A stretch of DNA of 64,000 nucleotides from contig JBAZBL010000002.1 of NCBI GenBank assembly GCA_041671485.1, positions 9,320 to 73,319 of the forward strand, written 5' to 3'. Positions 11,819 through 46,486 of the stretch are shown one piece after another. Numbering within the stretch: position 1 is the stretch's first letter; every line of letters starts with the position of its first letter. The notes under the pieces were generated by a model. That model was not told the origin of the DNA, made no database searches, and was given only the letters and a program-made list of their open reading frames with translations. Source of the stretch: Minisyncoccota bacterium (GTDB lineage: Bacteria > Patescibacteriota > Minisyncoccia > Phycocordibacterales > PALSA-1337). A program made the position numbers and the translations under genes.

Positions 11819-11840
11819 TAAGATCAAACTGAATATCAAT

Positions 11841-25426: not shown

Positions 25427-25449
25427 AATCAAAAACAAGAACCTTAACC

Positions 25450-25485
25450 CAGCCCTGACATTAATTTGTCAGGGCTGATTTTTTG
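25450..25485 (+). terminator. Rho-independent terminator
   Basis: cagccctgaca-ttaatt-tgtcagggctg followed by TTTTTT. Confidence 0.6.
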
Positions 25486-25518
25486 TGTGCTTTACATTTT
25501 AATAAAATTATAGTAATG

Positions 25519-25598
25519 TTCCGCTTAGAGTCGACTTAATCGACAAAGGCTAAAGTGCTGCCTTAAAGCATACAACTGAACATTGAAAGGAAAATACC
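25519..25598 (+). promoter_or_regulatory. Conserved leader, copy 2 (upstream of putative pyrE)
   Basis: See 23351-23447. Confidence 0.45.
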
Positions 25599-26315: not shown

Positions 26316-26345
26316 CTCTCAAACAAAACGAAAGGAAAACAGAAC

Positions 26346-27086: not shown

Positions 27087-27104
27087 CCAAGTCCTCAGCA
27101 ACAA

Positions 27105-27138
27105 TTAGCTCGTTCACTCCGGTGGCGAGCTAATTTTT
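27105..27138 (+). terminator. Rho-independent terminator after pyrF
   Basis: ttagctcg...cgagctaa stem followed by TTTTT. A second hairpin (aaaacccca-agt-ggggtttt) lies at about 27175-27197. Confidence 0.55.
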
Positions 27139-27363
27139 CATAATTAACTTTTTTAGTGTTTATGATAAATAACAAAAACCCCAAGTGGGGTTTTTGTGCG
27201 TTTCTGTGACATCATATGATACACAGAGTGTTTGCCTGCCATCAACACGCTGTCGATAGAATCATCTTGGTCGCAACTCCAATGACTCGCAGGCTTAACT
27301 ACAAGATAGTATAGACAAAAAATCTTACTTGTCAAGTATTTGTTTTAGACTTATAATCGCATC

Positions 27364-27960
27364 ATGTCATATACAATAGTTGGTCTAGGCAATCCGGGTG
27401 CAGAGTATGAAAATACACGTCACAATACTGGTCGTATTGTTTTGAATGTGATTGCAGATGAATTCTCGAAAAAAGACTTTGAATCAGATAAGAAAATAAA
27501 TGCATTGATAGTAGAAGGGAAGATAGGCAAAGAAAAAGTAGTTTTTGTGGTACCCGATACATTCATGAATAATTCTGGCAAAGCAGTTGGAGTATTGATC
27601 AAAAGCAAAAAGGCAGCAGAAAGACTTGTCGTTATCTATGATGATTTCAATTTACCACTCGGAAGAATCAAAATCTCTTTCAATAGAAGTTCTGGTGGGC
27701 ACAATGGTATAGAATCTATAATCAAAGCAATAAAGACTGAAAGCTTTATCCGTATTCGTATTGGCACTGCTCCAGAGAATGCAAAAGGAGAAGCAAAAGT
27801 ACCACACGGTGATGAGAAAATAGAGAAATTCATTCTTGGATCATTCAAACCAGATGAATTGAAAACATTAAAAAAGGTTGCAAATAAATGTACTGAAGCC
27901 GTAGAGATGATAGTGAGAGAAGGAAGGCAAAAAGCCATGAGCGTTTTTAACGCTATTTAG
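27364..27960 (+). CDS. pth: Peptidyl-tRNA hydrolase
   Basis: N-terminal IVGLGNPGAEYENTRHNTG and GHNG motifs. Confidence 0.85.
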   Translation: MSYTIVGLGNPGAEYENTRHNTGRIVLNVIADEFSKKDFESDKKINALIVEGKIGKEKVVFVVPDTFMNNSGKAVGVLIKSKKAAERLVVIYDDFNLPLGRIKISFNRSSGGHNGIESIIKAIKTESFIRIRIGTAPENAKGEAKVPHGDEKIEKFILGSFKPDELKTLKKVANKCTEAVEMIVREGRQKAMSVFNAI

Positions 27961-27998
27961 TATTTTTTATACCCAAAATATCTGTCTCAAAAATAGAT

Positions 27999-29225
27999 TT
28001 ATTTTTTCTCCCCAGAAAAACTCAATGCCATTTTTTGTTCCTTTGGTTCGAATAGTGTTATCTTGAAATCATAAGTTTTACCCAATTCGAGAGTTTTCCT
28101 CAATTTTTCTTCAGAGCCAAATTCAGAAACATGAACCAAGCCTGCTACACCTTCTTCGATAGAAGCCAATGCACCATGCTTATTGAATTTGATAATAACT
28201 CCAGATATAGGCATATCCTTTTTGTATTTTTTACCTGCTTCTACCCATGGATTTGGCTTCAGTTGTTTTATCGATAGAGATATCTTGCCATCTTTGATCT
28301 CTATGATCTTGGCTTTGACTTTTTGTCCAACTTTTACAAAATTGCTTGGATTGTCTACGAGACCCCAGTCAATTTCTGATATATGTACCAAACCTTCCAT
28401 GCCTTCTTCTAGCTTTATGAATGCACCAAATTCTACGACACCTGTTATAGTACCCTCGACCTCATTGCCCACTTCGTATTTACTTGCTATTTCTTCTTTT
28501 TCTTTGAGTTCAGAACCCTTTTCAGAGAAAATAAGTTTGCCTTCCTTTGGGTCGGCGGTGATGATAGAAACCTGTAGTCTTGTACCAACGAGCTTCTTCA
28601 ATTCCTCGAGGATTTTGTCTTTGTCTCCGTCTGCTACTTTGGGATAATGTTCTGGTTTCAATTGTGATGCTGGAAGAAATCCAGTTATTCCTTGCCAATC
28701 GATAAGAAGTCCTCCTTTATTTGCTTCTTTTATCTGGAGATCGAGCATTTTCCTATCTTTGATTGCAGATTCTGCTTCATTCCATATGAGAGCTTGCCTT
28801 GCTTCCTTTAGAGACAGTTCGTAATAGCCTTCTTTATGTGCATTGTCTACTATCTTTGCTGCTACGATATCTCCAACATTGATCTTTTTTATAATATCGC
28901 GTGCAGTCAAAAACTCTTTACCATATATGATACCTGTACCAAATGGTGCAAGATCTATAAATACAGAAGACTTTTCTGTTGCTATCACTGGTCCCTCGAC
29001 CAAGTCACCAATCATCGGAGGGTTTTTGATCTGTGCAATAAGTTTACCCATTACGGTTGCCTTCTTTTCTTCGGCAATCCTCATTGCTTTGTCTTTTATC
29101 TTTTCCTTATCATCAGACTTTTTGTCAGAAACTTTTTTTGGAGCCTTTATCTCTATCTCTTTTTCTTTTGTCACTTTACTATCATCTTTCGAACCAGTCA
29201 GAGTTTCTCTTAATTTTTTGAACAT
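27999..29225 (-). CDS. rpsA: 30S ribosomal protein S1 (four S1 domains)
   Basis: Repeated S1 OB-fold motifs (G.V..I...GAFV.L..G..GL.H.SE). Confidence 0.75.
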   Translation of the reverse strand: MFKKLRETLTGSKDDSKVTKEKEIEIKAPKKVSDKKSDDKEKIKDKAMRIAEEKKATVMGKLIAQIKNPPMIGDLVEGPVIATEKSSVFIDLAPFGTGIIYGKEFLTARDIIKKINVGDIVAAKIVDNAHKEGYYELSLKEARQALIWNEAESAIKDRKMLDLQIKEANKGGLLIDWQGITGFLPASQLKPEHYPKVADGDKDKILEELKKLVGTRLQVSIITADPKEGKLIFSEKGSELKEKEEIASKYEVGNEVEGTITGVVEFGAFIKLEEGMEGLVHISEIDWGLVDNPSNFVKVGQKVKAKIIEIKDGKISLSIKQLKPNPWVEAGKKYKKDMPISGVIIKFNKHGALASIEEGVAGLVHVSEFGSEEKLRKTLELGKTYDFKITLFEPKEQKMALSFSGEKK

Positions 29226-31673: not shown

Positions 31674-32825
31674 TTGTATACTATACCCATGAATTATAAT
31701 AGAATAATAAGCAAGGCTTTACTTGAAAATATAGGCAAAAAACCTATATTGGTACTTTATGGTGCGAGACAGGTCGGTAAAACAACATTGATAAAATCCA
31801 TTTTGGAAAAGTTTACAAAGACATTGTATTTACAAGGAGATGACCCGAAGGATGCTTTACTACTTGAACATAGATCAACAGATGAGCTTAGAGATCTCGT
31901 GTCAGGTTACGATCTCGTTGTTATTGATGAGGCTCAGAGAGTGAAAGATATCGGTACGACGCTCAAGTTGATCGCTGATAATGTAAAAGATGTGAGAGTC
32001 ATTGCATCAGGGTCGTCTGCATTTGAATTGGCTAATAGGTTGAGTGAGCCTCTGACAGGTAGAAATCGTAAATTTTATCTTTACCCACTGTCCATGTCGG
32101 AACTGATAGAGGCATACGGGAAAATAAATACGAGCAAAGAACTCGAGACATATATGTCCTTTGGCATGTATCCAAAGATCGTATCCGCAGAGTCTAGAGA
32201 GGAAAAAGCACTTCTAGTAAAAGAGTTGGCAGGGGATTATCTATTCAAGGACTTGTTCATGTTCGGAGACATTCGAAACTCATTTGCTTTTGAAAAACTC
32301 ATAAAACTCCTGGCACTTCGCATAGGTGGCGAGATTTCTTACTCAGAATTGGCAAAAGAAGTCGGAATAAGTAGAGATACGGTGTTGAATTATATCAAAT
32401 TACTTGAACAAGCGTTCATAATATTCCGATTGACACCTCTATACACCAATAAGTCCAAGGAGATAAACAAAAGCCACAAGATATATTTCTATGATGTTGG
32501 TATCAGAAATGCTCTCATCAATAATACCGATCCAATGGAATTGCGTCTAGATAAAGGTGCGATTTTTGAGAATTTCTTTATCGCAGAAAAAGTGAAAGAA
32601 AAAGAATATTCTGGTCGTACAAGTGAAATCCATTTCTGGAAGAGTCGCAGTGGAAGTGAGGTCGATTTTGTCGAAGTCTCTGGTGGTTCTATCAATGCTT
32701 TTGAATGTAAATGGAAGGAAGTGGTTAAGGCTCCGAAGACGTGGTTAGAAACATATCCAAAATCAAGCTTTGAATGTGTCACAACAGAAAATATACTCGA
32801 TTCATTTGCTGTCAAAACTTTATAA
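31674..32825 (+). CDS. AAA-family ATPase with DUF4143-like C-terminal domain
   Basis: Walker A GARQVGKTTL and Walker B DLVVIDEAQRV. Confidence 0.65.
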   Translation: MYTIPMNYNRIISKALLENIGKKPILVLYGARQVGKTTLIKSILEKFTKTLYLQGDDPKDALLLEHRSTDELRDLVSGYDLVVIDEAQRVKDIGTTLKLIADNVKDVRVIASGSSAFELANRLSEPLTGRNRKFYLYPLSMSELIEAYGKINTSKELETYMSFGMYPKIVSAESREEKALLVKELAGDYLFKDLFMFGDIRNSFAFEKLIKLLALRIGGEISYSELAKEVGISRDTVLNYIKLLEQAFIIFRLTPLYTNKSKEINKSHKIYFYDVGIRNALINNTDPMELRLDKGAIFENFFIAEKVKEKEYSGRTSEIHFWKSRSGSEVDFVEVSGGSINAFECKWKEVVKAPKTWLETYPKSSFECVTTENILDSFAVKTL

Positions 32826-35439: not shown

Positions 35440-35958
35440 ATGTTTTCTGACCCTACTCAAAATATAGGAAAGTTGGGACTAATACATGGAATGAAAGTAG
35501 TGGATCTTGGTGCAGGATCTGGTTTTTATACATTGGAAGCTGCAAGAAGAGTTGGAGCTGACGGAAGAGTATATGCAGTAGATGTACAAAAGAATTTGCT
35601 TGAACGCATAAGGACAAATGGAGCGCAAGAGGGACTCCGAAATATCGAAGTTGTTTGGGGCAATGCAGAGAAGATAGGCGGAACAAAGTTGCGTGAATCT
35701 ATAGCAGACATGGTTATTGCTTCAAATGTATTGTTTCAGATAGAAAAGCCAGATGAATTTGCTCTGGAGACAAAAAGATTATTGAAGCAAGGAGGCAAAG
35801 TATTGATAATAGATTGGAGTGAATTGAGCCCTATGGGACCACAAAATATTTTTACAGCCAATAAAGCACAAATGTTATTTGAGAAATCTGGATTCAAACT
35901 AGAGCAATCTTTCTCTGCTGGTGACCATCATTATGGGCTAATATTTATAAGACCATGA
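35440..35958 (+). CDS. Class I SAM-dependent methyltransferase
   Basis: Motif I VVDLGAGSGFYT. Confidence 0.6.
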   Translation: MFSDPTQNIGKLGLIHGMKVVDLGAGSGFYTLEAARRVGADGRVYAVDVQKNLLERIRTNGAQEGLRNIEVVWGNAEKIGGTKLRESIADMVIASNVLFQIEKPDEFALETKRLLKQGGKVLIIDWSELSPMGPQNIFTANKAQMLFEKSGFKLEQSFSAGDHHYGLIFIRP

Positions 35959-37250
35959 GTAAATTCCAAATAATAGTATTGGGAGTATTTGTTCTGGCTA
36001 TAATTGTCGGAGTAGCTACTTTTGCTACATACAAAGGTAGAGGAGGATCTAGTACACAATTACCACCTATCACAATCTGGGGTACATTTCCTGCAGAAAC
36101 TTTCAATAGTTATATATCCAAGATCAATCAAACTTTTTCTTTGCCATTAAGTATTTCTTATACAGAGATAAATCCAAATTCTTTTTCCAAACAATTTATC
36201 GCTGCTCTAGCTAGAGGGACTGGACCAGACGCCATATTGATATCGGCTGATATGATATTGCCACATTTGGATAAAATAACTCCTATACCATATGAAGCAT
36301 TACCACAGAGAACATTTATGGATTCTTATATAAATGAAGCACAGATATATGTAGGAGATGGTGGTATCCTAGCAATTCCTTTTGTAGTAGATCCATTACT
36401 TATGTATTGGAATAAAGACATGTTTGCTTCCGCCAATATAGCAACATATCCAAAATATTGGGATGATTTTACTGAATTGAATAAAAAGCTAACAGTCAAA
36501 GACAATAATGGAAATATAAGAAAGTCTGCTATTGCAATGGGAGACTTTGTAAATATAGCAAATGCAAGAGAGATCCTAGGAACACTCATACTTCAATTGG
36601 GGAATCCAGTTACAGTGAAAAATCAAGATGGATATATTTCAAGTACTATCAATACTTCTAATTCGACGAATCCAATCTCTGCTGTCCAATACTTTACTCA
36701 ATTTGTAAATCCAAATAGTTCAAATTATTCTTGGAATAGAGGAATGCAAAATTCCAAAACTGCTTTCTTATCTGGTACACTCGCTACATATTTTGGCTTT
36801 GCATCTGAACTCAAAGATATTCGTTCCAAGAATTCAAATCTCAATTTTGATGTTGCAGTCTTGCCACAGATGAAAGTTGGTGGTATGAAAGCTAGTTATG
36901 GCAAACTATACGGCTTCTCTGTAGTAAAGGCCTCAACAAATCAAAATGCTGCATATCAAACTTTTACCATGATAACAAATCCAAATAGTTTGAGAGTTTT
37001 GTCGGAAATGACATATTTGCCATCCGTTAGTATCGATCTTATTGCCCAAGGTTCAAAAGATCCATATATAACAGTATTCAATGGCGTTGCACTTATCGCC
37101 AAGACTTGGCTTGATGCAGATCCCATACAATCCAATAGGATATTTGGCAATATGGTAGATGCTATAACTAGTGGAGCGAAGAATATTTCGGAAGCCATAA
37201 ATGATACTGGAGACCAGTATGATGTATTGTTGTATCAAGCGACACAATAA
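35955..37250 (+). CDS. Extracellular solute-binding protein (ABC transporter SBP-like)
   Basis: N-terminal TM/signal anchor and periplasmic SBP-like composition. Family-level call only. Confidence 0.4.
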   Translation: MSKFQIIVLGVFVLAIIVGVATFATYKGRGGSSTQLPPITIWGTFPAETFNSYISKINQTFSLPLSISYTEINPNSFSKQFIAALARGTGPDAILISADMILPHLDKITPIPYEALPQRTFMDSYINEAQIYVGDGGILAIPFVVDPLLMYWNKDMFASANIATYPKYWDDFTELNKKLTVKDNNGNIRKSAIAMGDFVNIANAREILGTLILQLGNPVTVKNQDGYISSTINTSNSTNPISAVQYFTQFVNPNSSNYSWNRGMQNSKTAFLSGTLATYFGFASELKDIRSKNSNLNFDVAVLPQMKVGGMKASYGKLYGFSVVKASTNQNAAYQTFTMITNPNSLRVLSEMTYLPSVSIDLIAQGSKDPYITVFNGVALIAKTWLDADPIQSNRIFGNMVDAITSGAKNISEAINDTGDQYDVLLYQATQ

Positions 37251-37304: not shown

Positions 37305-37766
37305 ATGACAAATCAATTTCAAAATCCAAAGTATCTAATTATTATTGTTCTTTTGGTCATGGTATTGACTCCGATGCTAGTCAATGCAGCCAATCCTATA
37401 ACAGATGTATTCAATAGTAATTTCAAACTTTCTGTTTGCGATGGCCCTGCCAAGAATCCAAATGCAAATGCAACGAACTATCCCAATGGTTATGTAGCAT
37501 GCGACTTCAATGGTCTCATGTTACAAGCACAGCATCTTATTAATGTTTTTATAATATTTGGTGTTTTGGCGGCGATAGTAAGTTTTAGTTATGCTGGGTA
37601 TCTATATATTACTGGTGTAGAGAAAAATATAAGTCATGCAAGAGAGATCTTCCGTAAAACTGGCATAGGTCTTATAATGATGTTGACTGCATGGTTTGTT
37701 GTTTATCAGATACTGGACTGGCTAGTCGCAGATCCGGGGGTAAAGACACTTTTGGGGACACCATAA
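37305..37766 (+). CDS. Small secreted 2-TM protein, paralog 1 (VirB2/TrbC-pilin-like topology)
   Basis: Signal peptide plus two hydrophobic helices. First of six tandem paralogs. Confidence 0.5.
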   Translation: MTNQFQNPKYLIIIVLLVMVLTPMLVNAANPITDVFNSNFKLSVCDGPAKNPNANATNYPNGYVACDFNGLMLQAQHLINVFIIFGVLAAIVSFSYAGYLYITGVEKNISHAREIFRKTGIGLIMMLTAWFVVYQILDWLVADPGVKTLLGTP

Positions 37767-37783
37767 TTGTTGAATAAATATAT

Positions 37784-38272
37784 ATGAGAAAAATTATTTT
37801 TATAACTATAATTGCAGTCTTAATTGCTACTGGACCATTATCTGTATTTGCACAGAATTTATCAAATCAGACAGGTGGATCAACGTCAGGACAGACCGGA
37901 GGATCAACATCAGGACAAACTGGTGGTCCAAGTAATTCAAACACGAATACAATAACTCTAAAGAATCCACTAAAACCAGAAATAAACTCTGTTGGTGCAA
38001 TAGTGAGTGAAGGAGTGAAAATCTTTAGTTATGTTGTTGTCTTATTTGCTGTAATTGTACTTATATGGGTTGGCTTGCAATTTATTCTTGCAAGAGGTAA
38101 TGCAGAAGAATTGAAAAAGCTCAAACTATGGCTTACATGGGTAGTTGTTGGTGTTGCTATAGTCATAGGTGCTAGGATAATCATAGAATTGGTCATAAAC
38201 ACTTTGAGCTCTACGAATCTGGTCGATCAAAATGTTATTCAAAGTGCAGGTCAAGCTATAAGGAGTCAATAA
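37784..38272 (+). CDS. Small secreted 2-TM protein, paralog 2 (with GGSTSGQT repeats)
   Basis: Same architecture. Carries a tandem GGSTSGQT x3 low-complexity insert. Confidence 0.5.
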   Translation: MRKIIFITIIAVLIATGPLSVFAQNLSNQTGGSTSGQTGGSTSGQTGGPSNSNTNTITLKNPLKPEINSVGAIVSEGVKIFSYVVVLFAVIVLIWVGLQFILARGNAEELKKLKLWLTWVVVGVAIVIGARIIIELVINTLSSTNLVDQNVIQSAGQAIRSQ

Positions 38273-38293
38273 AATATTTATAAATAAAATAAT

Positions 38294-38689
38294 ATGAATA
38301 AAAAAATATATATAACAATATCGTCACTTGCTCTAGTATGTTTGCCACTATTTGCATTTGCTCAACAAAAGAAAGATTTGAATTATCTCATTTCTTTGTT
38401 TACAGATTATCTCAATAAAATACTATTGGTGATGATGGGTGTGGCCGTAGTTTTGTTCGTCTATTACATAATCAAATTCTTCTTAAGGCCAAGTGACAAA
38501 AGAGAAGAAGGTGCAAAATATCTCATGTGGAGTATTATTGGTTTCTTCATCATCTTATCATTTTGGGGTGTAGTGAATGTTCTGAAAAATACTTTCAATC
38601 TCGATAGTGAACGTCCTGCTTCATGGAGCGATTTCTTCAATATTTTTCCTAGAAATACTAATTCTGGAGGTACGACCTTAACTAGATAA
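38294..38689 (+). CDS. Small secreted 2-TM protein, paralog 3
   Basis: Shared motif W.I.G..I..S.WG.VN.L.NTF. Confidence 0.5.
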   Translation: MNKKIYITISSLALVCLPLFAFAQQKKDLNYLISLFTDYLNKILLVMMGVAVVLFVYYIIKFFLRPSDKREEGAKYLMWSIIGFFIILSFWGVVNVLKNTFNLDSERPASWSDFFNIFPRNTNSGGTTLTR

Positions 38690-38700
38690 ACTGATAGGCA

Positions 38701-39123
38701 ATGAATCAAACAGTATTCAATACAATAAATAATGCGAATGACCTATTTGGAAGATTGATGTATCTTGGCAATCTCATAATATATCTACTAATAGCTCTCG
38801 GTGTTGTATATATAGTATGGAATATAGTTATATATTTTATCAAAGGCAAAGAGGGCGATGAGAATCGTAGAGAGTCTGGCAAACATATTATGTGGGGTAT
38901 AGTTGGTCTGGCGATAATATTATCAGTTTGGGGCTTGGTCAATATTTTGGTCAATACATTTAGGACAAATCCTAATGAACCAAGAGATCGTTTCCCAAAT
39001 GCTGACTTCGTCAATTCTCAATCAGGACAAACTAATTCAGGCCAATACTATGATCGTAATATAGATAATCGTATGATTGACGCCCCTCAAGGCTGGGAGA
39101 GACAATATGAGAATATGATCTGA
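38701..39123 (+). CDS. Small secreted 2-TM protein, paralog 4
   Basis: IMWGIVGLAIILSVWGLVNILVNTF. Confidence 0.5.
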   Translation: MNQTVFNTINNANDLFGRLMYLGNLIIYLLIALGVVYIVWNIVIYFIKGKEGDENRRESGKHIMWGIVGLAIILSVWGLVNILVNTFRTNPNEPRDRFPNADFVNSQSGQTNSGQYYDRNIDNRMIDAPQGWERQYENMI

Positions 39124-39223
39124 TATATTACAATCCACAGCTAGTGTTGCTATATCTGTGTATAAACATATATAATTAGATTACATAATGTACGTTTATT
39201 TATTAGGTTAATATTAATTAAAA

Positions 39224-39592
39224 ATGAAAAAGACTTTTCTAACAGTTTTATTGACATCTTCGCCTATACTCGCTTTGGCGCAGACCAACCTTGTTACAGA
39301 TGCAAATTCTCTAACACAAAAGTTGATTGACATTAGCAATGTAGTCATATATCTTCTCATTGCTCTTGCAGTCATATTTATAATTTGGAATATAGTCATG
39401 TTCCTCATAAAGTCAGGCGAGGAAGATGCGAGAACAAAAGCGAGAAGTTCGATATTGTGGGGAATAGTAGGTTTGGCTATCATCTTGTCCATCTGGGGCT
39501 TGGTCAATATACTCATCAATACATTCAGGACAACTCCACCGGTTACTCCAAATCCAAATATAAGCAATACTGGTGTACCATTGATCAGATAA
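39224..39592 (+). CDS. Small secreted 2-TM protein, paralog 5
   Basis: ILWGIVGLAIILSIWGLVNILINTF, nearly identical to the core of paralog 4. Confidence 0.5.
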   Translation: MKKTFLTVLLTSSPILALAQTNLVTDANSLTQKLIDISNVVIYLLIALAVIFIIWNIVMFLIKSGEEDARTKARSSILWGIVGLAIILSIWGLVNILINTFRTTPPVTPNPNISNTGVPLIR

Positions 39593-39601
39593 TATTCAAA
39601 G

Positions 39602-39889
39602 ATGTTTTCGATCATATCATATGCTCATGCAGAAGTGAATGCAGTTACTTTTGGTAAAGTAATAGATCCTATAATTGCAAATGTGGTCAATCCGATAATC
39701 CAGATACTTTTTGCAATTGGTATATTTGTTTTTGCTTTGGGTGTAGTAGAGATGATAGTAAAAGGTGATGATGCTACAGCTAGAGAAAAGGGGAAGTTGC
39801 ATATGCTATATGGGGCGATAGGAATGTTCATAATGGTATCTGCATGGGGTATCATATATCTTATAGCAAATACGATAAAAGGGATTTAG
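39602..39889 (+). CDS. Small secreted 2-TM protein, paralog 6
   Basis: LYGAIGMFIMVSAWGIIYLIANTIKG. Confidence 0.45.
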   Translation: MFSIISYAHAEVNAVTFGKVIDPIIANVVNPIIQILFAIGIFVFALGVVEMIVKGDDATAREKGKLHMLYGAIGMFIMVSAWGIIYLIANTIKGI

Positions 39890-39905
39890 TCTAGAAAAGA
39901 TATTG

Positions 39906-39940
39906 AAAAAGGCCGTGAGAGTATCACGGCCTTTGCGTTT
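39906..39940. terminator. Bidirectional rho-independent terminator
   Basis: aaaaa-ggccgtga-gagta-tcacggcc-tttgcgttt, lying between convergent genes. Confidence 0.5.
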
Positions 39941-39951
39941 GAAATCCATAT

Positions 39952-40344
39952 TTACTGGGTCCAAATCTTTACGACTAAAGGACCGTTCAACAGATTTATC
40001 TTTTCTGCGAGCATCTGAAATCTTTTGATGCCAGCGGTGTTGAAGTGTTTCCCAGGTTCTATGGAATGTCTCTCAGATGGATGGTCGAGGTCAATGACTC
40101 TGATTTCCTCTGCCCATCCCCTAACGATTTCAAAGAACCAATCTTGATTTGTCCCAACATGGAATACCTGAGAAGGATTTGCAGTTAGGGTAATAACTGC
40201 AGAATTTCCATTAACACCAGTTTGTGTATTGGATGAACTTTGATCGCGATTGCTGTAAACACGCCATCCCCAACCAGCTATTGCGACTACGGCCGCAATC
40301 AGTATGATTGTCGTTGCGATTTTCCAACCTTGTTTGGTGTCCAT
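39952..40344 (-). CDS. Membrane-anchored hypothetical protein (possible NfeD-like partner of the SPFH protein)
   Basis: N-terminal TM helix. Located immediately downstream of the SPFH gene on the same strand. Confidence 0.4.
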   Translation of the reverse strand: MDTKQGWKIATTIILIAAVVAIAGWGWRVYSNRDQSSSNTQTGVNGNSAVITLTANPSQVFHVGTNQDWFFEIVRGWAEEIRVIDLDHPSERHSIEPGKHFNTAGIKRFQMLAEKINLLNGPLVVKIWTQ

Positions 40345-41367
40345 TTACTTTCCTCCTTTCTTTTCTCCACCCTTTCCACCAAATTTGATGTCGGGGTTTA
40401 CAAGATTTATGTTTTGGCCACTACCGCCACTCTCGATACGTGCAACCATATTGTCTCTTACGAGACGTTGGACACGGATAGTTTCGAGACATTCAGTAAG
40501 ACCAGGAATAGTCTTTGCTTGAACCAGAGCTCTCATTTGAGCTAGGAATTGATCTTCTGAAAGATTGGTCGGTAAGTATTGTCGTGCCAGTGCCACTTGC
40601 AGTTCTTGGGCTGCAATTCGCATTGTCTGGTACTCCATCCGTTCTGCCTCACGTTGGAATTTCTCTCTCTCGACTTGTCTCATGTCATCATGGATATCTT
40701 TGTCGAGAGTAAAGTTGACTCTGACTTTGATCAGTTCAATTCCAAATGCTTGACGCTGAAACAGATTGTTTTTGATCTTTGCATGCAGTAGATTTGCAAT
40801 CTTATTGCCTTCTCTGCTGATAGCAAGGACATCCATTTTTTGTTCTGGATCCATCACAATCTCCTGTACTTCTTGAAATACTGGATCTGCTAGTTGGGTA
40901 AATACCTGTTCTATGTCATTGCCTGCCTGAACAAAGTCTTCTAGGTCAGCAATATCTGGACAAGCAGTTACCGAGACTTTTCCTGATATCGGAACTTTAT
41001 TCCATGAGATAATAGTCATAGGAAAGTCGCGATCCTTATTGTCCATGGCGATCTTGATGCTTCCTAGTTTGAATGGGAAGTAGTCGGCAAGTATCGTAGT
41101 ACCTCCAACGACCACACATTGCCCGTAGATCTTGATCGGTGCGTCCCAGAGAGTGAGCAAGCCCGCTTCTCGAGGTTTTGATGGCGAATGTTTGGTAAGA
41201 CCAAATCCAAATGCAAATGCACCAATTGCTGTGATTAAAATCCCGACCAACCCTATCACGAATGACAGAATTAATCCGATAATGATGAAGCTACCAACGA
41301 TGATTGCTATCAATATCGTAACTGGATTTCCGAATGGAACTAACTTTGGAGCAACTCTTTCTTCCAT
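40345..41367 (-). CDS. SPFH/Band-7 (stomatin/prohibitin/flotillin-like) domain membrane protein
   Basis: N-terminal TM segments followed by an SPFH-like domain and a coiled-coil tail. Confidence 0.65.
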   Translation of the reverse strand: MEERVAPKLVPFGNPVTILIAIIVGSFIIIGLILSFVIGLVGILITAIGAFAFGFGLTKHSPSKPREAGLLTLWDAPIKIYGQCVVVGGTTILADYFPFKLGSIKIAMDNKDRDFPMTIISWNKVPISGKVSVTACPDIADLEDFVQAGNDIEQVFTQLADPVFQEVQEIVMDPEQKMDVLAISREGNKIANLLHAKIKNNLFQRQAFGIELIKVRVNFTLDKDIHDDMRQVEREKFQREAERMEYQTMRIAAQELQVALARQYLPTNLSEDQFLAQMRALVQAKTIPGLTECLETIRVQRLVRDNMVARIESGGSGQNINLVNPDIKFGGKGGEKKGGK

Positions 41368-41506
41368 ATTTCCTTTCTAACCTCCCACAGTAGGGAAGTA
41401 TTGTTTCTTTTGTTGTTGTCAACGCAATACTCACAAGAGTACTACTAACTAAATTCCTATAAATGGTAGCATTTAAAGGATACTTTGTCAAGATTAGGAA
41501 GTCATA

Positions 41507-41531
41507 CGGATGTTTTCATACGGAGGTCTGA
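41507..41531. repeat. Palindrome family B copy (cataCGGAGGTCtGACCTCCGtatg)
   Basis: Perfect 12-nt arms. Related copies at 30923-30943, 50293-50311, and 50978-50996. Confidence 0.6.
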
Positions 41532-41544
41532 CCTCCGTATGTCC

Positions 41545-41588
41545 GTAGGTGTATAAAAAAGAGCGCGACCACATGTATTGCTACACAT
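41545..41588 (-). terminator. Rho-independent terminator for the 41618-43765 gene
   Basis: On the minus strand, gagcgcgaacatgtgtagcaatacatgtggtcgcgctc is followed by TTTTTT. Confidence 0.55.
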
Positions 41589-41617
41589 GTTCGCGCTCCG
41601 TGAATCTGGAAACAGTT

Positions 41618-43765
41618 CTACCTCATTCGGTAGAATGTGAACTCGAGGCTTGTTTCCTGAATGCCTACGAGTCGCAGTTTCCACTCATGTTGCTGGAGTG
41701 GATCTGCCGCAACTTTGACCTGACCGGAATGTTTGGTGGACAGCTTTCCGTCTATTACACATTCGATCTGATCACTGTTTGCTGGAGTGTAACAGGACAT
41801 GTTCCAGCCATCTGGAATAATGACCTGAAGCAACTCTCCAGCCTTGATCCATCTTGAATCGGTGAAGCTCTTGCAACAGTTATTAGCTGGCACACAGAGC
41901 CGTCCGTCGAGGATTTGTGTCGGAGGTAGTTCCCACCAATTGGGAACCTTAACCTCGACAGGCTTCTCCTGTGGCACTGATGCCGTCCGAGGAGAAGTCG
42001 CCGTGACGTCTGTTGGCTTTGCCGTCGTTGGACAGCAACCGCCTATAACGACATTGCTTTTGCCAACAGCATTGCCGTTGCCGATCACAATGTTGATGAC
42101 ATTATTGTCACCAACACCGTCACGAGTTACCCTTTGTAAGAGGGCGTTCGTCAGGTCGGACACGTTGGTCACGACTGGTGGCACAATTACCGACCGCTGA
42201 CCCAGTCCATCCACCGACTTTTGTAGTCCTTGGATGGCTGACAGGAACGGAGTCGTGTCAGTAACCGGCGGAGTTGTCGCTGTTGGCACTGTGGACTTTT
42301 TGAAGAGCACGGCCTGCCACACAAACCACACCGCTCCGATGATCATGAGGACGACCAGGAGTGGCAACCACTGCAAGTCGCGATCATACCAGGACCCCTT
42401 CTTTGCAGGAGGAGTTGGTGGCACCACGGGCGGAGGTGTCGGAGTGACCAACTTGCCACGAAGTTCATCAAGTTCCTTTCGGAGTTTGGTTACTTCATCA
42501 CTTGTTGTCACCACTGGTGCTGGCGGAGTCTGTGCCACTTTCGTGGCAGTTCCTACAGCCAACTCACGAATGAGATCGATCTGGCTCTGAAGCGCAGAGA
42601 TCTCATCTTTCGCAACTTTCAGTTCCTGTTGTGCCAGAGCCGAATGGTCATCGAATGATCCGGCCGGGAGTTTCTCCTCGGCGGGTTTCGATGGCTCTGC
42701 TGTTGCTGACCCAACCTTTTCCTCGGCAGGCTTCGGAGCCAGCGTCGGAGGAGGCGGGACCACTTTCGGTTCCTCGACCACGGGGGTCGGAGGTGGAGCC
42801 GGAGGAACGGCATGACCGACAGGTGGTGTTGTCACTGGTGCTGGTGTGTCAATGACCGCGGGGGTCGGAGCTGGTTTTTCCTTCGCCATTTCGGTGGCGA
42901 GGTTGGCGCAGGCGACACTGTGGTGTTGCTCCAGCTCGTCGATGATCTTTGTAAGCTCGTCCCATCCTCCTTGGAACTTGCTATACAGAGATTTGAGTTG
43001 GATGACTTGTCTCCTCATTTGGTTCAATGCGAGTCCCATGTTTCTCAACATGGAAGTGTCTGGAGTGATTTGTTTGGCCTCGACTCCCACAAGGTCGTTC
43101 TTGATCCTCTCCAATCGCCGGACCATCGTCACATACCCAGGCGGGACCCTCTCCTTCTTTTCTGACCCATCCGCTTTTGGCGTTGGGGGCAGAGTCGGAG
43201 GAGGAGTGATCACTTTTGGTTCCTCGGCCATGGTGGCCGTGGGAACTGGAGGAGTCACCACAGCAGGCGGTGTTGCCACTGCCGGTGTCTCGGTCGCAGG
43301 GGTCGGAGGAAGTGGAAGCTTAATCGCAAGTGCAGATAACTTTCCGTTTTCTTTGCACGAGAGCTTTTCCTTCCACGGTTCACTTCGATCGAGGTTAGGT
43401 GCCATGAGAGCACATACCTGAAGACCATAGAAGATCGTATCGTTTGGATGTCCGGGAGCCCAACTGAGACCCTCGTTGATATCCATGATGAGCCGATCAT
43501 TTGAAAGTATCGGTTCAAGCGTTCTCACGTTTGTTACGATACTTTCTTTGTCATAGTCAATCACGACGATGACAAATGAAGACTCACCAGTCTTCGGCAT
43601 GATCGTGAGCGTATTACCACTCAGTTCACATGTCGGGGCAAGAGCCCGTTTTGTTTTCTTAGCCATTTTCTGTTTTCTCCGTTTGTTGCGACCCCTTTTA
43701 TAGGGCCTTTGTTTTGCGAGAATCCATTGAAGGATCCTTGCGGTTTTTGTCTTTTTGATTGTCAA
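41618..43765 (-). CDS. Large Pro/Thr-rich repeat membrane protein with coiled-coil segments and a Cys-rich C-terminal domain
   Basis: 715-aa ORF (the start may be an internal Met at 43666). One TM helix (LPLLVVLMIIGAVWFVWQAVLF). Two copies of a ~150-aa repeat (EEPKV.TPPPTL...). About 55% GC in a ~35% GC genome. Confidence 0.5.
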   Translation of the reverse strand: MTIKKTKTARILQWILAKQRPYKRGRNKRRKQKMAKKTKRALAPTCELSGNTLTIMPKTGESSFVIVVIDYDKESIVTNVRTLEPILSNDRLIMDINEGLSWAPGHPNDTIFYGLQVCALMAPNLDRSEPWKEKLSCKENGKLSALAIKLPLPPTPATETPAVATPPAVVTPPVPTATMAEEPKVITPPPTLPPTPKADGSEKKERVPPGYVTMVRRLERIKNDLVGVEAKQITPDTSMLRNMGLALNQMRRQVIQLKSLYSKFQGGWDELTKIIDELEQHHSVACANLATEMAKEKPAPTPAVIDTPAPVTTPPVGHAVPPAPPPTPVVEEPKVVPPPPTLAPKPAEEKVGSATAEPSKPAEEKLPAGSFDDHSALAQQELKVAKDEISALQSQIDLIRELAVGTATKVAQTPPAPVVTTSDEVTKLRKELDELRGKLVTPTPPPVVPPTPPAKKGSWYDRDLQWLPLLVVLMIIGAVWFVWQAVLFKKSTVPTATTPPVTDTTPFLSAIQGLQKSVDGLGQRSVIVPPVVTNVSDLTNALLQRVTRDGVGDNNVINIVIGNGNAVGKSNVVIGGCCPTTAKPTDVTATSPRTASVPQEKPVEVKVPNWWELPPTQILDGRLCVPANNCCKSFTDSRWIKAGELLQVIIPDGWNMSCYTPANSDQIECVIDGKLSTKHSGQVKVAADPLQQHEWKLRLVGIQETSLEFTFYRMR

Positions 43766-43915
43766 AATTCACTACCTATACATTATACTCTGTTTTACGA
43801 AAATGTCAAGTATTTTATTGGTTTCTACGCAGGTCTACCCTGCGTAAATCCCAAAAATGATATCCACACAATATTTCAATTAGTTTTCTCTAATAGTGTT
43901 ATAATTACTGCATAA

Positions 43916-44188
43916 ATGGAAAAAAATGTAAAAATGGTATTACTTGTATTGATAATTATCCTTTCATGTGTATTTATCTTCTTCTATTCCTTTCAATCAA
44001 AATCTTCGCTACCATCTCAATCACCTCAACCCAATAAAGAAAAGACAGAAGAGCAGATTATGCAGGTTTTTACCGACTCTATTGCTCCAACGACTGCAAC
44101 AACCTCATTAGACATACAGGAGTCAAAGGAGCTTATAGATTCTATTGCACCACGAGATAATAAAATAATTAAAACTATTAATAATTAA
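43916..44188 (+). CDS. Small secreted protein (90 aa)
   Basis: N-terminal hydrophobic helix. ORF only. Confidence 0.3.
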   Translation: MEKNVKMVLLVLIIILSCVFIFFYSFQSKSSLPSQSPQPNKEKTEEQIMQVFTDSIAPTTATTSLDIQESKELIDSIAPRDNKIIKTINN

Positions 44189-44199: not shown

Positions 44200-45108
44200 A
44201 TGAAACAACAAAAAATCCTTAATATAACAGGAATTATTGTACTGGGTCTTGTTATTAGTTTTGGCGCCAACTATGCTTTTGCTGTGTGGACAAATCCTCC
44301 CGGAAATCCTCCAACATGTCCGGATACGATAGAGGGTTGCAATACACCACTCAATGTATCAGGTACAACTCAGAATAAAGTTGGAGGACTTACTTTGGGT
44401 GGAGGAATTATTGTCGGAACACAAAATCCTGTAAATGGCCTTATCGTCCAGACGGGAAAGGTTGGTATTGGGACAATTACACCTAGCAACAAATTGACTA
44501 TAAATGGTGGTGGATTAACCGGCAGCGGAATTAATAATGTTTTGCGTCTTTCTGGCGGGGCTATGTCAACCGTGAATGATGCTACGAGTTTGCTCTTTAT
44601 TCAGTGGGATGTCCACAATGCCTACGGGGCGGCCATCCGTTTGGTAAACACGCAATCAACTCCGCAGGTTCTTAATCCGCGCCTGGATTTTGCTGTTCAA
44701 AACACGGGTACGAGCGCGCAAGCAGATATTGGAGTAAAGATGAGTATATTGGGGAATGGCAATATTGGTGTTGGTACAATCAATCCAACACAGAAACTAG
44801 AAGTAGTAGGAACAGTAAAGACTACAGGTCTTCAAGTTACAGGTGGAACTCCTGGCGCTGGCAAAGTTTTGACTTCTGATGCGAATGGAGTAGGAACATG
44901 GCAGATATCTACTGGTGGAAGTGGTGGTAGTAGTCCTAAAATAATCTCAGGTGTTGCGAATATTCCTATAAGTATTTGTCTGGCATCGGGTGGTGTATGT
45001 ACACATGATGTTACTTTTCCTTCAGGATCGTTTTCCTTGACACCAAATGTGGTTATTACACCCAAATGGGTTGCCTTTCATGCGAATTCAGAAGAAGCTT
45101 CTATGTAG
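44200..45108 (+). CDS. Secreted protein with tail-fibre-like VGIGT..P..KL.V repeats
   Basis: Signal peptide. Repeats KVGIGTITPSNKLTINGG and NIGVGTINPTQKLEVVG resemble the repeat found in phage tail-fibre / fibre-like proteins. Confidence 0.45.
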   Translation: MKQQKILNITGIIVLGLVISFGANYAFAVWTNPPGNPPTCPDTIEGCNTPLNVSGTTQNKVGGLTLGGGIIVGTQNPVNGLIVQTGKVGIGTITPSNKLTINGGGLTGSGINNVLRLSGGAMSTVNDATSLLFIQWDVHNAYGAAIRLVNTQSTPQVLNPRLDFAVQNTGTSAQADIGVKMSILGNGNIGVGTINPTQKLEVVGTVKTTGLQVTGGTPGAGKVLTSDANGVGTWQISTGGSGGSSPKIISGVANIPISICLASGGVCTHDVTFPSGSFSLTPNVVITPKWVAFHANSEEASM

Positions 45109-45265: not shown

Positions 45266-46486
45266 ATGAAAATTTCTTTTCAAAAAATTATTTTTACACT
45301 AGTTTTTCTTTTATTACCATTTATTGTTTCTGCAGGAACTGAACATAATATATTTGGTTATGCTTGGTCATCGAATGTCGGTTGGATCAGTTTCAATGGT
45401 GTAAACAAAGACGCAAGTGGCAATCTAATAGGTTATGCGTGGTCTTCTAATGTTGGTTGGATACAGTTCGGTGGACTCTCGGGTTTTCCTTCTGGAACTG
45501 GAACACAAGCTCAAAATGCAAAAATAAGTGGCAACAATCTAAAAGGTTGGGCCAAGGCTCTTTCTGCTGATGGCAATGGTTGGGATGGTTGGATTTCACT
45601 TTCTGGTGCTGGATATGGCGTGACTCTCTCGGGGACGAGTCTTACAGGATATGGTTGGGGTTCGACTGTTATTGGATGGGTTGATTTTAATCTTGTTACT
45701 ATTGTGCCATCTATTCCAACAGAAATAACAGGGGCGTGTTCATTGAATAACATTCCATACAGTGATTTAAATCCAGTAACCATCTTTTCATTAGGAGATA
45801 TAGTAACATTCAAATTGTCTAATATTGGTGGCGGTACGAATCCAACAGGTTATACATATGAACTTACTGTGGGTAGTGGATGGACCCCTATATCTCTGAA
45901 TGCAAATAGTTCATATATACATACATTTATCATAACAACAGGTGTCGGATTTCCTACAGTTATCAAGGTTACCAATGCTGGTATTACAAAAGATATACAA
46001 TGTGGCAAGATCACAGTTTTAGATCCGACTCCGCCAGCAACGGTTCCTCCGGGTCCATTGCTTTGGTTTAAAGATAGAGGTCAGCCAAATAGTAATGTTA
46101 AAGCAGTATGGGATCAACAAGCAAAGACAGTGAGGGAAGGAACAGATGTGGAAGTTGTATATGATAGAGATAGTCTTTTGTGTTATGGATATTCCATTCC
46201 CTCAGTCATTCCTGGAGATTCAAATTGGGGAAATCAAGGATTTATTACCCAAAATTCAAATTATTATATCAATCCTGATCATCAAATATACAAATTTACC
46301 AATTTAGTAAAAGGTAAGTATGTTTTAATCTTGACATGTGATGACTCATTAGCAATAAAAATCCAATATTCATGGCTTGCTAATATTATTAACTCGTTCT
46401 CTCAAATCTTCGCTCAAAGTCCTTCCACTATCGATAGCAATAGAATAACAATCAATGTAGTAAAGCCAACCATAGAAGAGATATAG
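45266..46486 (+). CDS. Secreted protein with GYAWSSNVGWI(S/Q)F repeats
   Basis: Signal peptide and tandem W-rich repeats. No family assigned. Confidence 0.45.
   Translation: MKISFQKIIFTLVFLLLPFIVSAGTEHNIFGYAWSSNVGWISFNGVNKDASGNLIGYAWSSNVGWIQFGGLSGFPSGTGTQAQNAKISGNNLKGWAKALSADGNGWDGWISLSGAGYGVTLSGTSLTGYGWGSTVIGWVDFNLVTIVPSIPTEITGACSLNNIPYSDLNPVTIFSLGDIVTFKLSNIGGGTNPTGYTYELTVGSGWTPISLNANSSYIHTFIITTGVGFPTVIKVTNAGITKDIQCGKITVLDPTPPATVPPGPLLWFKDRGQPNSNVKAVWDQQAKTVREGTDVEVVYDRDSLLCYGYSIPSVIPGDSNWGNQGFITQNSNYYINPDHQIYKFTNLVKGKYVLILTCDDSLAIKIQYSWLANIINSFSQIFAQSPSTIDSNRITINVVKPTIEEI

What the first reader, a model, noticed from the sequence alone, without database searches (positions are those of the whole stretch)
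37305..39889. Tandem array of six paralogous small secreted 2-TM proteins (VirB2/TrbC-pilin-like topology)
Six consecutive same-strand genes (95-162 aa) each encode a cleavable signal peptide followed by two hydrophobic helices around a short basic loop. Paralogs 3-6 share the conserved core W.I.G..I..S.WG.VN.L.NTF. The N- and C-terminal tails are highly divergent, and one paralog carries GGSTSGQT tandem repeats. The topology matches conjugative T-pilins (VirB2/TrbC). A diversifying pilin or surface-protein family that may be antigenically or phase variable is a reasonable hypothesis. No VirB4/VirB6/VirD4 genes are in the window.
Basis: partly seen in the sequence, partly recalled or inferred. 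Interest (0 to 1): 0.55.

Follow-up and report, generated by a model that had tools for sequence, protein, structure and literature searches.

The report
Conserved six-gene T4SS-type pilin array
Six neighbouring small membrane-hairpin genes in an ultra-small (Patescibacteria) bacterium belong to the known "type IV secretion pilin" family. They form a fixed, conserved set of distinct subunits, not a variable antigen cassette, and published work already describes such arrays.

Summary
The six same-strand genes are real. Five score above the Pfam T4SS_pilin (PF18895) threshold. The sixth, P1, falls below it but joins the family by profile-profile comparison. The source is a Candidatus Paceibacterota MAG. 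Tandem VirB2-like pilin arrays are already published for Patescibacteria (Wang 2023; Quiñonero-Coronel 2025), so this is a new member of a known kind.

The antigenic or phase-variation idea is not supported:
- Across about 80 related species the array keeps one gene order (P1-P2-P3-[P4]-P5-P6) with 1:1 positional orthologues.
- Against the closest relative, dN/dS is 0.02-0.30.
- There are no slippage tracts, invertible elements or silent cassettes.
- Only the extracellular tails vary.

Two details of the finding were wrong. P4 has no signal peptide and P6 has only a 10-residue leader.

New details found here:
- The array always follows a membrane-anchored MalE-like binding protein.
- No VirB4-like ATPase was detected within ±10 kb of it in related loci.
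- It carries a conserved internal promoter (ATCCACA-N29-32-TATAAT) before P5-P6.
- It ends at a strong terminator.

Relatives elsewhere include single proteins with 2-8 fused hairpin modules. The most likely function is a set of subunits of a T4SS-associated pilus or stalk, assembled by a VirB4 system encoded elsewhere. That link is inferred, not shown.

The parts
35955..37250 (+). Membrane-anchored MalE-like solute-binding protein (431 aa). It is the conserved upstream neighbour and probably in the same transcription unit as P1-P4.
   Evidence: Pfam SBP_bac_1/SBP_bac_8. Similar to maltose-binding proteins in the PDB. N-terminal TM segment 1-28. A homologue lies in 71 ORFs of related loci, directly upstream of the array. 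The stop-start gap is 54 nt here, 16 nt in L002, and the genes overlap in L004.
37305..37766 (+). P1: the most divergent hairpin paralogue (153 aa). It has a signal peptide (…LVNA|A), an extracellular segment with the conserved C45-D-G-P…C66 pair, and a 2-TM core.
   Evidence: PF18895 21.6 bits, below the 26.6 cut-off. hhalign of the P1 group against the P2 group gives 98.1% probability, and against P6 95.7%. Conserved Cys pair. dN/dS 0.05.
37784..38272 (+). P2: a signal peptide, a low-complexity G/S/T/Q N-tail, and a 2-TM core. It is the closest of the six to TrbC/VirB2.
   Evidence: PF18895 29.2 bits; TrbC PF04956 21.1 bits, sub-threshold. hhalign against a VirB2 alignment gives 31% probability. 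The N-tail length ranges 10-119 aa across species. dN/dS 0.30.
37868..37917 (+). 24-nt tandem repeat (2.1 copies) encoding GGSTSGQT in the P2 N-tail.
   Evidence: Tandem Repeats Finder. The closest relative, L006, carries a different repeat (GGVNQTP) at the same place.
38294..38689 (+). P3: a signal peptide (…AFA|Q), a 2-TM core and a variable C-tail.
   Evidence: PF18895 37.5 bits. The C-tail ranges 21-141 aa across species. dN/dS 0.19.
38701..39123 (+). P4: a leaderless duplicate of P5 (58% identity) with a long C-tail.
   Evidence: PF18895 40.8 bits. No signal peptide; its N-terminus aligns with mature P5. Absent from 35 of about 80 arrays (order 12356).
39133..39176 (+). Conserved internal promoter-like element: ATCCACA, then 31 nt, then TATAAT, ending about 47 nt before the P5 start codon.
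   Evidence: Present in 74 of 75 related loci, with 29-32 nt spacing in 64 of 73. Only two composite sites occur in the 64-kb window. 64 of 67 composite sites in 1.2 Mb of related loci precede P5-type genes. The gap has no significant RNA structure (z = -0.12).
39224..39592 (+). P5: a signal peptide (…ALA|Q), a 2-TM core and a short Pro-rich C-tail. It is the most conserved member.
   Evidence: PF18895 41.4 bits. 98% identical to L006, dN/dS 0.02. AF2 model: a helix over the predicted signal peptide plus a hairpin at H27-62/H67-100, pLDDT 78.5.
39602..39889 (+). P6: the minimal 95-aa hairpin with a 10-residue leader ending AHA|E and almost no tails.
   Evidence: PF18895 39.7 bits over 70 of 71 profile positions. 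Always last in the array. dN/dS 0.04.
39908..39934 (.). GC-rich hairpin flanked by an A-run and a U-run, lying between P6 and the convergent 130-aa gene. It is probably a bidirectional intrinsic terminator that ends the array transcript.
   Evidence: strand folding on 39880-39965: -29.7 kcal/mol, z = -4.70, 0 of 200 shuffles as stable.

Best explanation
The six genes encode a fixed set of T4SS_pilin-family (PF18895, VirB2-like) membrane hairpins in a Candidatus Paceibacterota chromosome.

Shown:
- Each protein is a roughly 61-73-residue two-helix hairpin with a charged connecting loop.
- Four carry Sec-type leaders ending in AxA.
- The six fall into five ancient orthogroups (P1, P2, P3, P5, P6) plus a leaderless P5 duplicate (P4).
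- They are kept in one order behind a MalE-like binding-protein gene in about 80 species, under purifying selection.
- Hairpin core lengths are nearly fixed, while the N- and C-tails are hypervariable.
- P5-P6 have their own conserved promoter, and the array ends at a terminator.

Inferred:
- The proteins insert through Sec/YidC with both ends outside and the loop in the cytoplasm.
- Leaders are removed by signal peptidase I (a LepB gene lies at 22686-23309).
- The different subunits co-assemble, with P5/P6 as the bulk subunits and P1-P3 as minor or specialised ones, into a pilus- or stalk-like structure.
- A VirB4-type, monoderm-class T4SS encoded elsewhere in the genome builds that structure.
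- It serves the cell-to-host contact on which these epibionts depend.
- The variable tails would decorate the exposed surface.
For: - Family: PF18895 above the gathering score for P2-P6. P1 is sub-threshold but 98% hhalign probability to the P2 group. There are sub-threshold hits to the Mycoplasma ICE 'pilin-like conjugal transfer protein' NF045849. NCBI names orthologues 'pilin'.
- Structure: hydropathy and the AF2 hairpin.
- Distinct roles: 1:1 positional orthology (47-98% between orthologues against 18-58% between paralogues) and conserved order 12356/123456 in 58 of 85 arrays (another 10 read 123556). dN/dS 0.02-0.30. Fixed core lengths with variable tails.
- Co-assembly: single polypeptides with 2-8 fused hairpin modules occur among relatives (58 of the best 150 representatives).
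- Own promoter and terminator.
- T4SS link: in Ca. [quoted passage not shown] 441 such arrays are reported in Patescibacteria, and 2,417 of 3,035 genomes have VirB4 (PMC12102498). The Taylorbacteria genome that supplied L048, which has the same array, is listed VirB4-positive.
Against: - No VirB4, VirB6, VirD4, TrsD or PrgI is in the 64-kb window. No VirB4-like ATPase was detected within ±10 kb of the array in related loci: of the ORFs of 450 aa or more without a window homologue, a sample of ten (seven with a Walker A motif) was scanned, and the ATPases and GTPases among them are SMC, ClpB and IF-2. So in this lineage the array is linked to an SBP gene, not to a T4SS.
- Homology to bona fide VirB2 is weak: TrbC 21 bits; hhalign 31% for P2 and 7% or less for the others.
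- There is no sequence hit to solved pilins.
- Fold searches return only generic helical hairpins.
- No pilus of this type has been seen in any Patescibacterium (PMC12857230 treats it as a possibility).
- Fused proteins with up to 16 TM helices are awkward to extract into a filament.
Confidence: 0.58

Rival explanations
1. T4SS-independent envelope module. The hairpins form a membrane-embedded hetero-oligomer (a ring, channel or platform) that works with the co-encoded membrane-anchored MalE-like binding protein, for example to capture or pass host-derived carbohydrates. They are never extracted into a pilus.
For: - The SBP gene is directly upstream in 71 related-locus ORFs, with short or overlapping junctions.
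- No VirB4-like ATPase was detected within ±10 kb in related loci, from a sample of ten large ORFs.
- Relatives exist as single polytopic proteins of 2-8 hairpins.
- Similarity to true VirB2 is weak.
Against: - The family is otherwise found inside T4SS clusters: pilins lie near virB4 in 1,135 of 1,948 assemblies, and inside the essential cluster of S. epibionticum.
- There are sub-threshold matches to an ICE conjugal-transfer protein family.
- No ABC permease or ATPase lies next to the SBP to suggest a transporter.
- Synteny with gyrA and a methyltransferase is equally conserved, so adjacency alone is weak evidence.
Confidence: 0.24
2. One reading: a diversifying, antigenically or phase-variable pilin cassette, in which paralogues are alternative versions of one surface subunit.
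For: - Paralogues are only 18-58% identical.
- Tails vary widely in length and sequence between species.
- The P2 N-tail carries a short tandem repeat that is replaced by a different repeat in the closest relative.
- The published discussion raises adaptation to different hosts.
Against: - Every paralogue has a positional orthologue, in the same order, in about 80 species.
- All are under purifying selection.
- There are no homopolymer or SSR tracts at starts, no invertible promoter, no recombinase and no silent cassettes.
- Paralogues share DNA identity only in an 82-nt TM2 segment, at 63-80%.
- The only copy-number change is presence or absence of the P4/P5 duplicate.
Confidence: 0.06
3. An unrelated small membrane protein family (holins, bacteriocin or immunity proteins, or spurious hydrophobic ORFs) that matches a pilin HMM only through transmembrane composition.
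For: Short 2-TM proteins give compositionally inflated matches. Many weak Pfam hits to unrelated membrane families appear below threshold. Fold searches are non-specific.
Against: - Five independent above-threshold PF18895 matches cover 79-99% of the model.
- Conserved non-TM motifs are present.
- A reversed-sequence control gives hhalign probability of 0.5% or less, against 31% for VirB2.
- No holin or phage family hit was found.
- dN/dS is well below 1, and the genes are conserved in about 80 species.
- The setting is chromosomal housekeeping, not a prophage.
Confidence: 0.04

Closest known systems
VirB2-like pilin arrays of Patescibacteria (Ca. Southlakia epibionticum ML1 T4SS cluster SEML1_0006-0019; the 441 arrays of Quiñonero-Coronel et al. 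2025)
   Same: - Same Pfam family (PF18895) and same phylum.
- Tandem arrays of 2-11 small, sequence-divergent pilin-like genes, averaging about 25% identity; S. epibionticum also has six.
- Chromosomal, with no relaxase context.
- All six window genes meet that paper's detection criteria (i-E < 0.001, more than 50% HMM coverage).
   Different: - In S. epibionticum the pilins sit inside the T4SS cluster and are shown to be essential. Here the array is more than 24 kb from any possible virB4. In its lineage no VirB4-like ATPase was detected within ±10 kb, and it sits behind a MalE-like SBP gene.
- The class is Paceibacteria, not Saccharimonadia.
- The fixed five-orthogroup order, the internal promoter and the leaderless P4 are not described in those papers.
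TrbC/VirB2 conjugative pilins of diderm T4SS (Agrobacterium VirB2, RP4 TrbC; Pfam PF04956)
   Same: - A small protein with a leader and two hydrophobic helices around a short charged loop.
- P2 aligns in register over TM1-loop-TM2 with a VirB2 alignment and gives a weak PF04956 hit.
   Different: - Scores are below the family threshold (21.1 against 27.9 bits).
- hhalign probability is 31% at best, and there is no match to solved pilin sequences or folds.
- Leaders are short rather than 40-50 residues.
- No adjacent virB1, virB3 or virB4.
- Monoderm host.
- Six distinct subunits rather than one major pilin.
Small 2-TM proteins of monoderm conjugation systems (Mycoplasma ICE Mbov_0395 family, NF045849; pCF10 PrgF)
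   Same: - Same size and hairpin topology, with a similar acidic/basic loop.
- P2-P6 score 24.7-38.1 bits on NF045849.
- Tandem 'VirB2 + PrgF + PrgF' hits far from virB4 are listed for other Paceibacteria in Table S3 of PMC12102498.
- This fits the MPF-FATA ancestry of Patescibacterial VirB4.
   Different: - All hits are below the NF045849 cut-off of 40.
- Direct comparison with pCF10 PrgF is weak (11 bits; hhalign 8%).
- Those proteins are single-copy and ICE- or plasmid-borne, and no pilus is known for them.
VirB2 paralogue families of Anaplasma and Bartonella (antigenic variation or host-range model)
   Same: Several tandem, divergent VirB2-type genes in an organism that depends on a host (cited).
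   Different: Here the paralogues are ancient, positionally orthologous across species and under purifying selection, with no sign of recombination or switching.

Membership tests
Pfam PF18895 T4SS_pilin | Whole-protein HMM score at or above the gathering score (26.6 bits) | tested here: met
   P2 29.2, P3 37.5, P4 40.8, P5 41.4 and P6 39.7 bits. P1 scores 21.6 bits (E = 2.3e-4), below the cut-off.
Pfam PF18895 T4SS_pilin | P1 belongs to the same family as P2-P6 | tested here: met
   hhalign of orthogroup alignments: P1 against P2 98.1% (E = 1e-13), against P6 95.7%, against P3 90.5%, all over the 2-TM core. Caveat: TM composition inflates such scores.
Pfam PF18895 T4SS_pilin | Small protein with an N-terminal leader followed by a two-helix membrane hairpin | tested here: met
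   Hydropathy and the AF2 model of P5. Four of six have a canonical leader; P4 has none and P6 has a 10-residue leader.
Patescibacterial VirB2 array (sensu PMC12102498) | Two or more pilin genes in tandem (or separated by one gene), each hitting PF18895/PF04956 with i-E < 0.001 and more than 50% HMM coverage | tested here: met
   All six are adjacent. E-values are 2.3e-4 to 1.5e-10, and coverage is 54-70 of 71 profile positions. The definition is quoted.
Functional T4SS pilin (any class) | Encoded with, or in a genome that has, a VirB4 ATPase and channel components | tested here: inconclusive
   None is in the window, and none was detected within ±10 kb of the array in related loci from a sample of ten large ORFs. 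The rest of this genome is not available. A relative with the same array (L048, GCA_001821055.1) is listed VirB4-positive.
Functional T4SS pilin (any class) | Polymerises into an extracellular pilus | not testable with these tools
   No experimental data exist for this lineage. The literature treats a Patescibacterial T4SS pilus as a possibility only.
Pfam PF04956 TrbC/VirB2 | HMM score at or above the gathering score (27.9 bits) | tested here: not met
   Best is P2 at 21.1 bits (E = 3.8e-4), then P3 16.2 and P5 12.5.
Pfam PF04956 TrbC/VirB2 | Profile-profile or structural similarity to bona fide VirB2 pilins | tested here: inconclusive
NCBIfam NF045849 Mbov_0395 pilin-like conjugal transfer protein | Score at or above the curated cut-off (40 bits) | tested here: not met
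   24.7-38.1 bits for P2-P6; no hit for P1.
Phase- or antigenically variable pilin system | Slippage-prone repeats at gene starts, an invertible promoter, silent cassettes or a recombinase; lineage-specific turnover of copies | tested here: not met
   The only tandem repeat is an in-frame 24-nt unit in the P2 tail. There are no strong inverted repeats around promoters. Order and 1:1 orthology are conserved. dN/dS is 0.02-0.30.
Holins / phage small membrane proteins | Match to a holin or phage family; phage neighbourhood | tested here: not met
   No Pfam holin hit. PHROGs gives only E = 0.0075 to a family of unknown function for P5. Neighbours are gyrA, a methyltransferase, an SBP and a Band_7 homologue.

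The most novel reading that the evidence does not exclude
The SBP-linked, virB4-unlinked five-orthogroup hairpin module is not a pilus at all. It would be a distinct envelope device of Paceibacteria: a membrane-embedded hetero-oligomer of VirB2-like hairpins acting with a MalE-like receptor, under its own conserved ATCCACA-type promoter. In this reading the 2-8-module 'poly-hairpin' fusion proteins found among relatives represent the same assembly written as one polypeptide.
Probability: 0.2. Interest if true: 0.7.

Novelty: new member of a known kind. Interest (0 to 1): 0.35.

Why it matters
Patescibacteria make up a large share of uncultured bacterial diversity and live attached to host cells. 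Their T4SS and its pilin series are essential in the one species tested, yet nobody knows what the structure is or does.

This locus adds no new kind of system, but it gives useful constraints:
- The subunits are a fixed heteromeric set rather than interchangeable variants.
- In this lineage they can be uncoupled from virB4 and coupled to a sugar-binding protein.
- They have a conserved dedicated promoter.
- Relatives exist as covalently fused multi-hairpin proteins.

Together these make testable predictions about stoichiometry, assembly and regulation of the proposed monoderm T4SS pilus.

Tried and rejected
- A profile of P5 orthologues against all PDB sequences found no pilin. The best hit was FliL at E = 0.3.
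- hhalign against an alignment of seven plasmid VirB2/TrbC proteins was weak, 31% at best. The comparison with pCF10 PrgF was also weak.
- PHROGs found no holin or phage link.
- A search for phase-variation signals (tandem repeats, direct and inverted repeats, promoter scan) found nothing convincing.
- A search for VirB4 in the window and in ±10 kb flanks of related loci detected none. A sample of ten of the large ORFs lacking a window homologue was scanned, and the ATPases and GTPases among them are SMC, ClpB and IF-2.
- The supplement of PMC12102498 was searched for the syntenic relative GCA_028865255.1. It is not in their dataset.
- I could not obtain a Patescibacterial VirB4 sequence with the allowed inputs, so the WCW03 MAG could not be queried directly for VirB4.
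- The P4-P5 gap was folded as RNA and shows no structure above background. It is therefore read as a promoter, not a riboregulator.
Full report
**1. What is there**

The window holds six consecutive + strand ORFs:
- P1, 37305-37766, 153 aa
- P2, 37784-38272, 162 aa
- P3, 38294-38689, 131 aa
- P4, 38701-39123, 140 aa
- P5, 39224-39592, 122 aa
- P6, 39602-39889, 95 aa

The gaps between them are 17, 21, 11, 100 and 9 nt. Each protein has two hydrophobic segments separated by a 12-19 residue loop with four or five K/R and two to four D/E, net +1 to +2.

P1, P2, P3 and P5 have ordinary leaders ending VNA|A, VFA|Q, AFA|Q and ALA|Q. P4 has none. Its first residues (MNQTVFNTINNANDL…) align with the mature N-terminus of P5 (QTNLVTDANSLTQKL…). 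P6 has only MFSIISYAHA|E.

The GGSTSGQT repeat is a 24-nt unit present in 2.1 copies at 37868-37917.

**2. Family**

Pfam T4SS_pilin (PF18895, gathering score 26.6) scores:

| Paralogue | Bits |
|---|---|
| P2 | 29.2 |
| P3 | 37.5 |
| P4 | 40.8 |
| P5 | 41.4 |
| P6 | 39.7 |
| P1 | 21.6 |

- TrbC/VirB2 (PF04956) appears only below threshold, with P2 best at 21.1 bits.
- NCBIfam gives sub-threshold hits (24.7-38.1 bits, cut-off 40) to the Mycoplasma ICE 'Mbov_0395 pilin-like conjugal transfer protein' family.
- Orthogroup alignments built from about 80 genomes are all related by hhalign. P1 against P2 gives 98.1% and P4 against P5 gives 100%.
- An AF2 model of P5 (pLDDT 78.5) shows a leader helix plus a hairpin at H27-62/H67-100.
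- Against an alignment of seven annotated plasmid VirB2/TrbC proteins, hhalign gives 31% probability for the P2 group, with TM1-loop-TM2 in register. The other groups give 7% or less, and reversed controls give 0.5% or less.

So membership of PF18895 is established. Membership of classical TrbC/VirB2 is not.

**3. Source and context**

P1, P2 and P6 are exact matches to NCBI proteins of a MAG named Candidatus Paceibacterota bacterium. The locus tags are WCW03_00385 (P6), WCW03_00405 (P2) and WCW03_00410 (P1), on a contig of 101,814 bp. NCBI annotates these three as 'hypothetical protein'. Homologues are all from Patescibacteria (Taylorbacteria, Paceibacterota), and several are named 'pilin'.

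The window is core chromosome. It carries:
- ThrRS, HisRS and a class I tRNA synthetase
- FtsZ, FtsA, LepB and GyrA
- MraW, a PBP and a Mur ligase
- a PilB/PilC-type type IV pilus pair

It has no VirB4- or VirD4-like ATPase, and none of the unknown ORFs is polytopic.

**4. Comparative anatomy**

The neighbourhood gyrA - methyltransferase - MalE-like SBP - array - Band_7 recurs in relatives. A scan of one genome per species returned 80 loci, all from MAGs of this lineage.
- Among 63 arrays not cut by contig ends, 34 have five genes, 27 have six and 2 have four.
- When each gene is assigned to its best orthogroup, the order is 12356 in 35 arrays, 123456 in 23 and 123556 in 10.
- Positional orthologues are 47-98% identical, whereas paralogues within the window are 18-58% identical.

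Against the closest relative, L006 (GyrA 98% identical, dS 0.25-0.6 for most genes (1.3 for P4)), dN/dS values are:

| Paralogue | dN/dS |
|---|---|
| P1 | 0.05 |
| P2 | 0.30 |
| P3 | 0.19 |
| P4 | 0.06 |
| P5 | 0.02 |
| P6 | 0.04 |

Hairpin cores keep nearly fixed lengths (61-73 aa). Tails vary widely: the P2 N-tail is 10-119 aa, the P3 C-tail 21-141 aa and the P5 C-tail 19-84 aa. P1 keeps an invariant C-D-G-P…C pair.

No slippage tracts, invertible segments or silent copies were found.

The array is therefore an old, ordered set of five distinct subunit types plus one recent duplicate. It is not a variation cassette.

**5. Transcription signals**

The only long gap (39124-39223) carries ATCCACA, then 31 nt, then TATAAT, ending about 47 nt before the P5 ATG.
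- The same arrangement occurs in 74 of 75 related loci, with 29-32 nt spacing in 64 of 73.
- The composite occurs only twice in the window.
- In 1.2 Mb of related loci, 64 of 67 composite sites precede P5-type genes.
- The gap has no RNA structure above background.

After P6, a GC-rich hairpin at 39908-39934 (-29.7 kcal/mol, z = -4.7) lies between the convergent genes. I infer two units. The first is (gyrA/MTase/)SBP-P1-P4 by read-through. The second is a dedicated P5-P6 transcript, which suggests P5/P6 are the abundant subunits.

**6. Link to a secretion system**

Published work already describes this kind of array.
- Wang et al. [quoted passage not shown] Southlakia epibionticum.
- Quiñonero-Coronel et al. 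2025 report VirB4 in 2,417 of 3,035 Patescibacteria genomes. They found VirB2-like pilins near virB4 in 1,135 of 1,948 assemblies. They also list 441 arrays of 2-11 pilin genes averaging 25% identity.
- A 2025 review calls the pilus a possibility, not a finding.

In the present lineage the array was not seen next to a VirB4-like ATPase within ±10 kb. A sample of ten of the large ORFs lacking a window homologue was scanned, and the ATPases and GTPases among them are SMC, ClpB and IF-2. The Taylorbacteria genome that supplied L048 is listed as VirB4-positive. Similar virB4-distant tandem 'VirB2/PrgF' hits are tabulated for other Paceibacteria.

The T4SS link is thus an inference from family membership and lineage-level co-occurrence. 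I give it about 0.58.

**7. Alternative**

Three observations keep open a T4SS-independent membrane assembly working with the binding protein (about 0.24):
- the constant pairing with a membrane-anchored MalE-like SBP;
- the lack of local T4SS genes;
- the existence of genuine fusion proteins with 2-8 hairpin modules.

The fusion proteins come from a library-wide profile search, which found 23,768 representatives at E <= 1e-3. Of the best 150, 58 have 2-8 matched stretches. The four sequences inspected have two to eight modules. In them the leader is at the N-terminus only, and linkers join the modules. Whichever reading is right, the fusions argue that different hairpins sit side by side in one assembly.

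**8. Verdict**

The antigenic or phase-variation reading fails. The kind of feature is already published, so novelty is 'new member of a known kind'.

The lineage-specific points are modest additions: the fixed order, SBP linkage, internal promoter, leaderless duplicate and fused relatives. Interest is 0.35.

Noticed in passing
window 39133-39176 and 43862-43905: The composite ATCCACA-N31-TATAAT occurs only twice in 64 kb. One copy is before P5. The other is before a cluster of three secreted or membrane proteins of unknown function: 43916-44188 (90 aa), 44200-45108 (302 aa, with a weak tail-fibre PHROG hit) and 45266-46486 (406 aa, with GYAWSSNVGWI repeats). This may mark a small surface-protein regulon with an unknown regulator.
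   Followed up: partly
proteins P0121, P0124, P0125, P0134, P0154, not in the window: Relatives of the family exist as single polypeptides with 2-8 tandem hairpin modules (up to 820 aa and about 16 TM helices). The leader is only at the N-terminus, so these are true fusions and not read-through. The papers I read do not mention them.
   Followed up: partly
window 38701-39123 (P4): P4 is a duplicate of P5 that has lost the signal peptide and starts exactly at the predicted mature N-terminus of P5. It is absent from 35 of about 80 related arrays.
   Followed up: yes
window 35955-37250: An orphan membrane-anchored MalE-like solute-binding protein with no ABC permease or ATPase nearby. It lies directly upstream of the array in 71 related-locus ORFs, and its stop overlaps the first pilin start in L004.
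   Followed up: partly
window 24000-28000 and 40000-44000: Two islands of higher G+C (0.44-0.51 against a background of 0.33-0.40). ORFs there have no Pfam or PHROG match, including a 715-aa proline-rich single-TM protein at 41618-43765 (-). In 24.3-26.3 kb, ORFs overlap on both strands.
   Followed up: no
window ~20000-24000: The cumulative GC skew has its minimum near 20-22 kb, and gene orientation switches from - to + at about 23.9 kb. This is the pattern expected at a replication origin, but no dnaA was identified in the window.
   Followed up: no
window 10682-14287: A type IV pilus pair (a PilB/PilT-type ATPase and a PilC-type platform protein) followed by a 462-aa single-TM protein of unknown function. 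This system is separate from the T4SS-type hairpins.
   Followed up: no
window 58099-60154 and 31674-32825: KilA-N and Fic/DOC-HTH genes and a DUF4143 AAA ATPase. These are mobile-element or defence-type genes embedded among housekeeping genes.
   Followed up: no
loci L013, L020, L022, L027, L028 and others: Many TPA MAG records titled 'uncultured Candidatus Saccharibacteria bacterium' carry the same pilin-array layout as the Taylorbacteria/Paceibacterota loci. Their titles are probably mislabelled.
   Followed up: no
window 37305-39889; NCBI MFA6404455.1-MFA6404460.1: In the source MAG, P1, P2 and P6 are annotated 'hypothetical protein', while close orthologues in other MAGs are named 'pilin'. 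Annotation is inconsistent across the array.
   Followed up: partly
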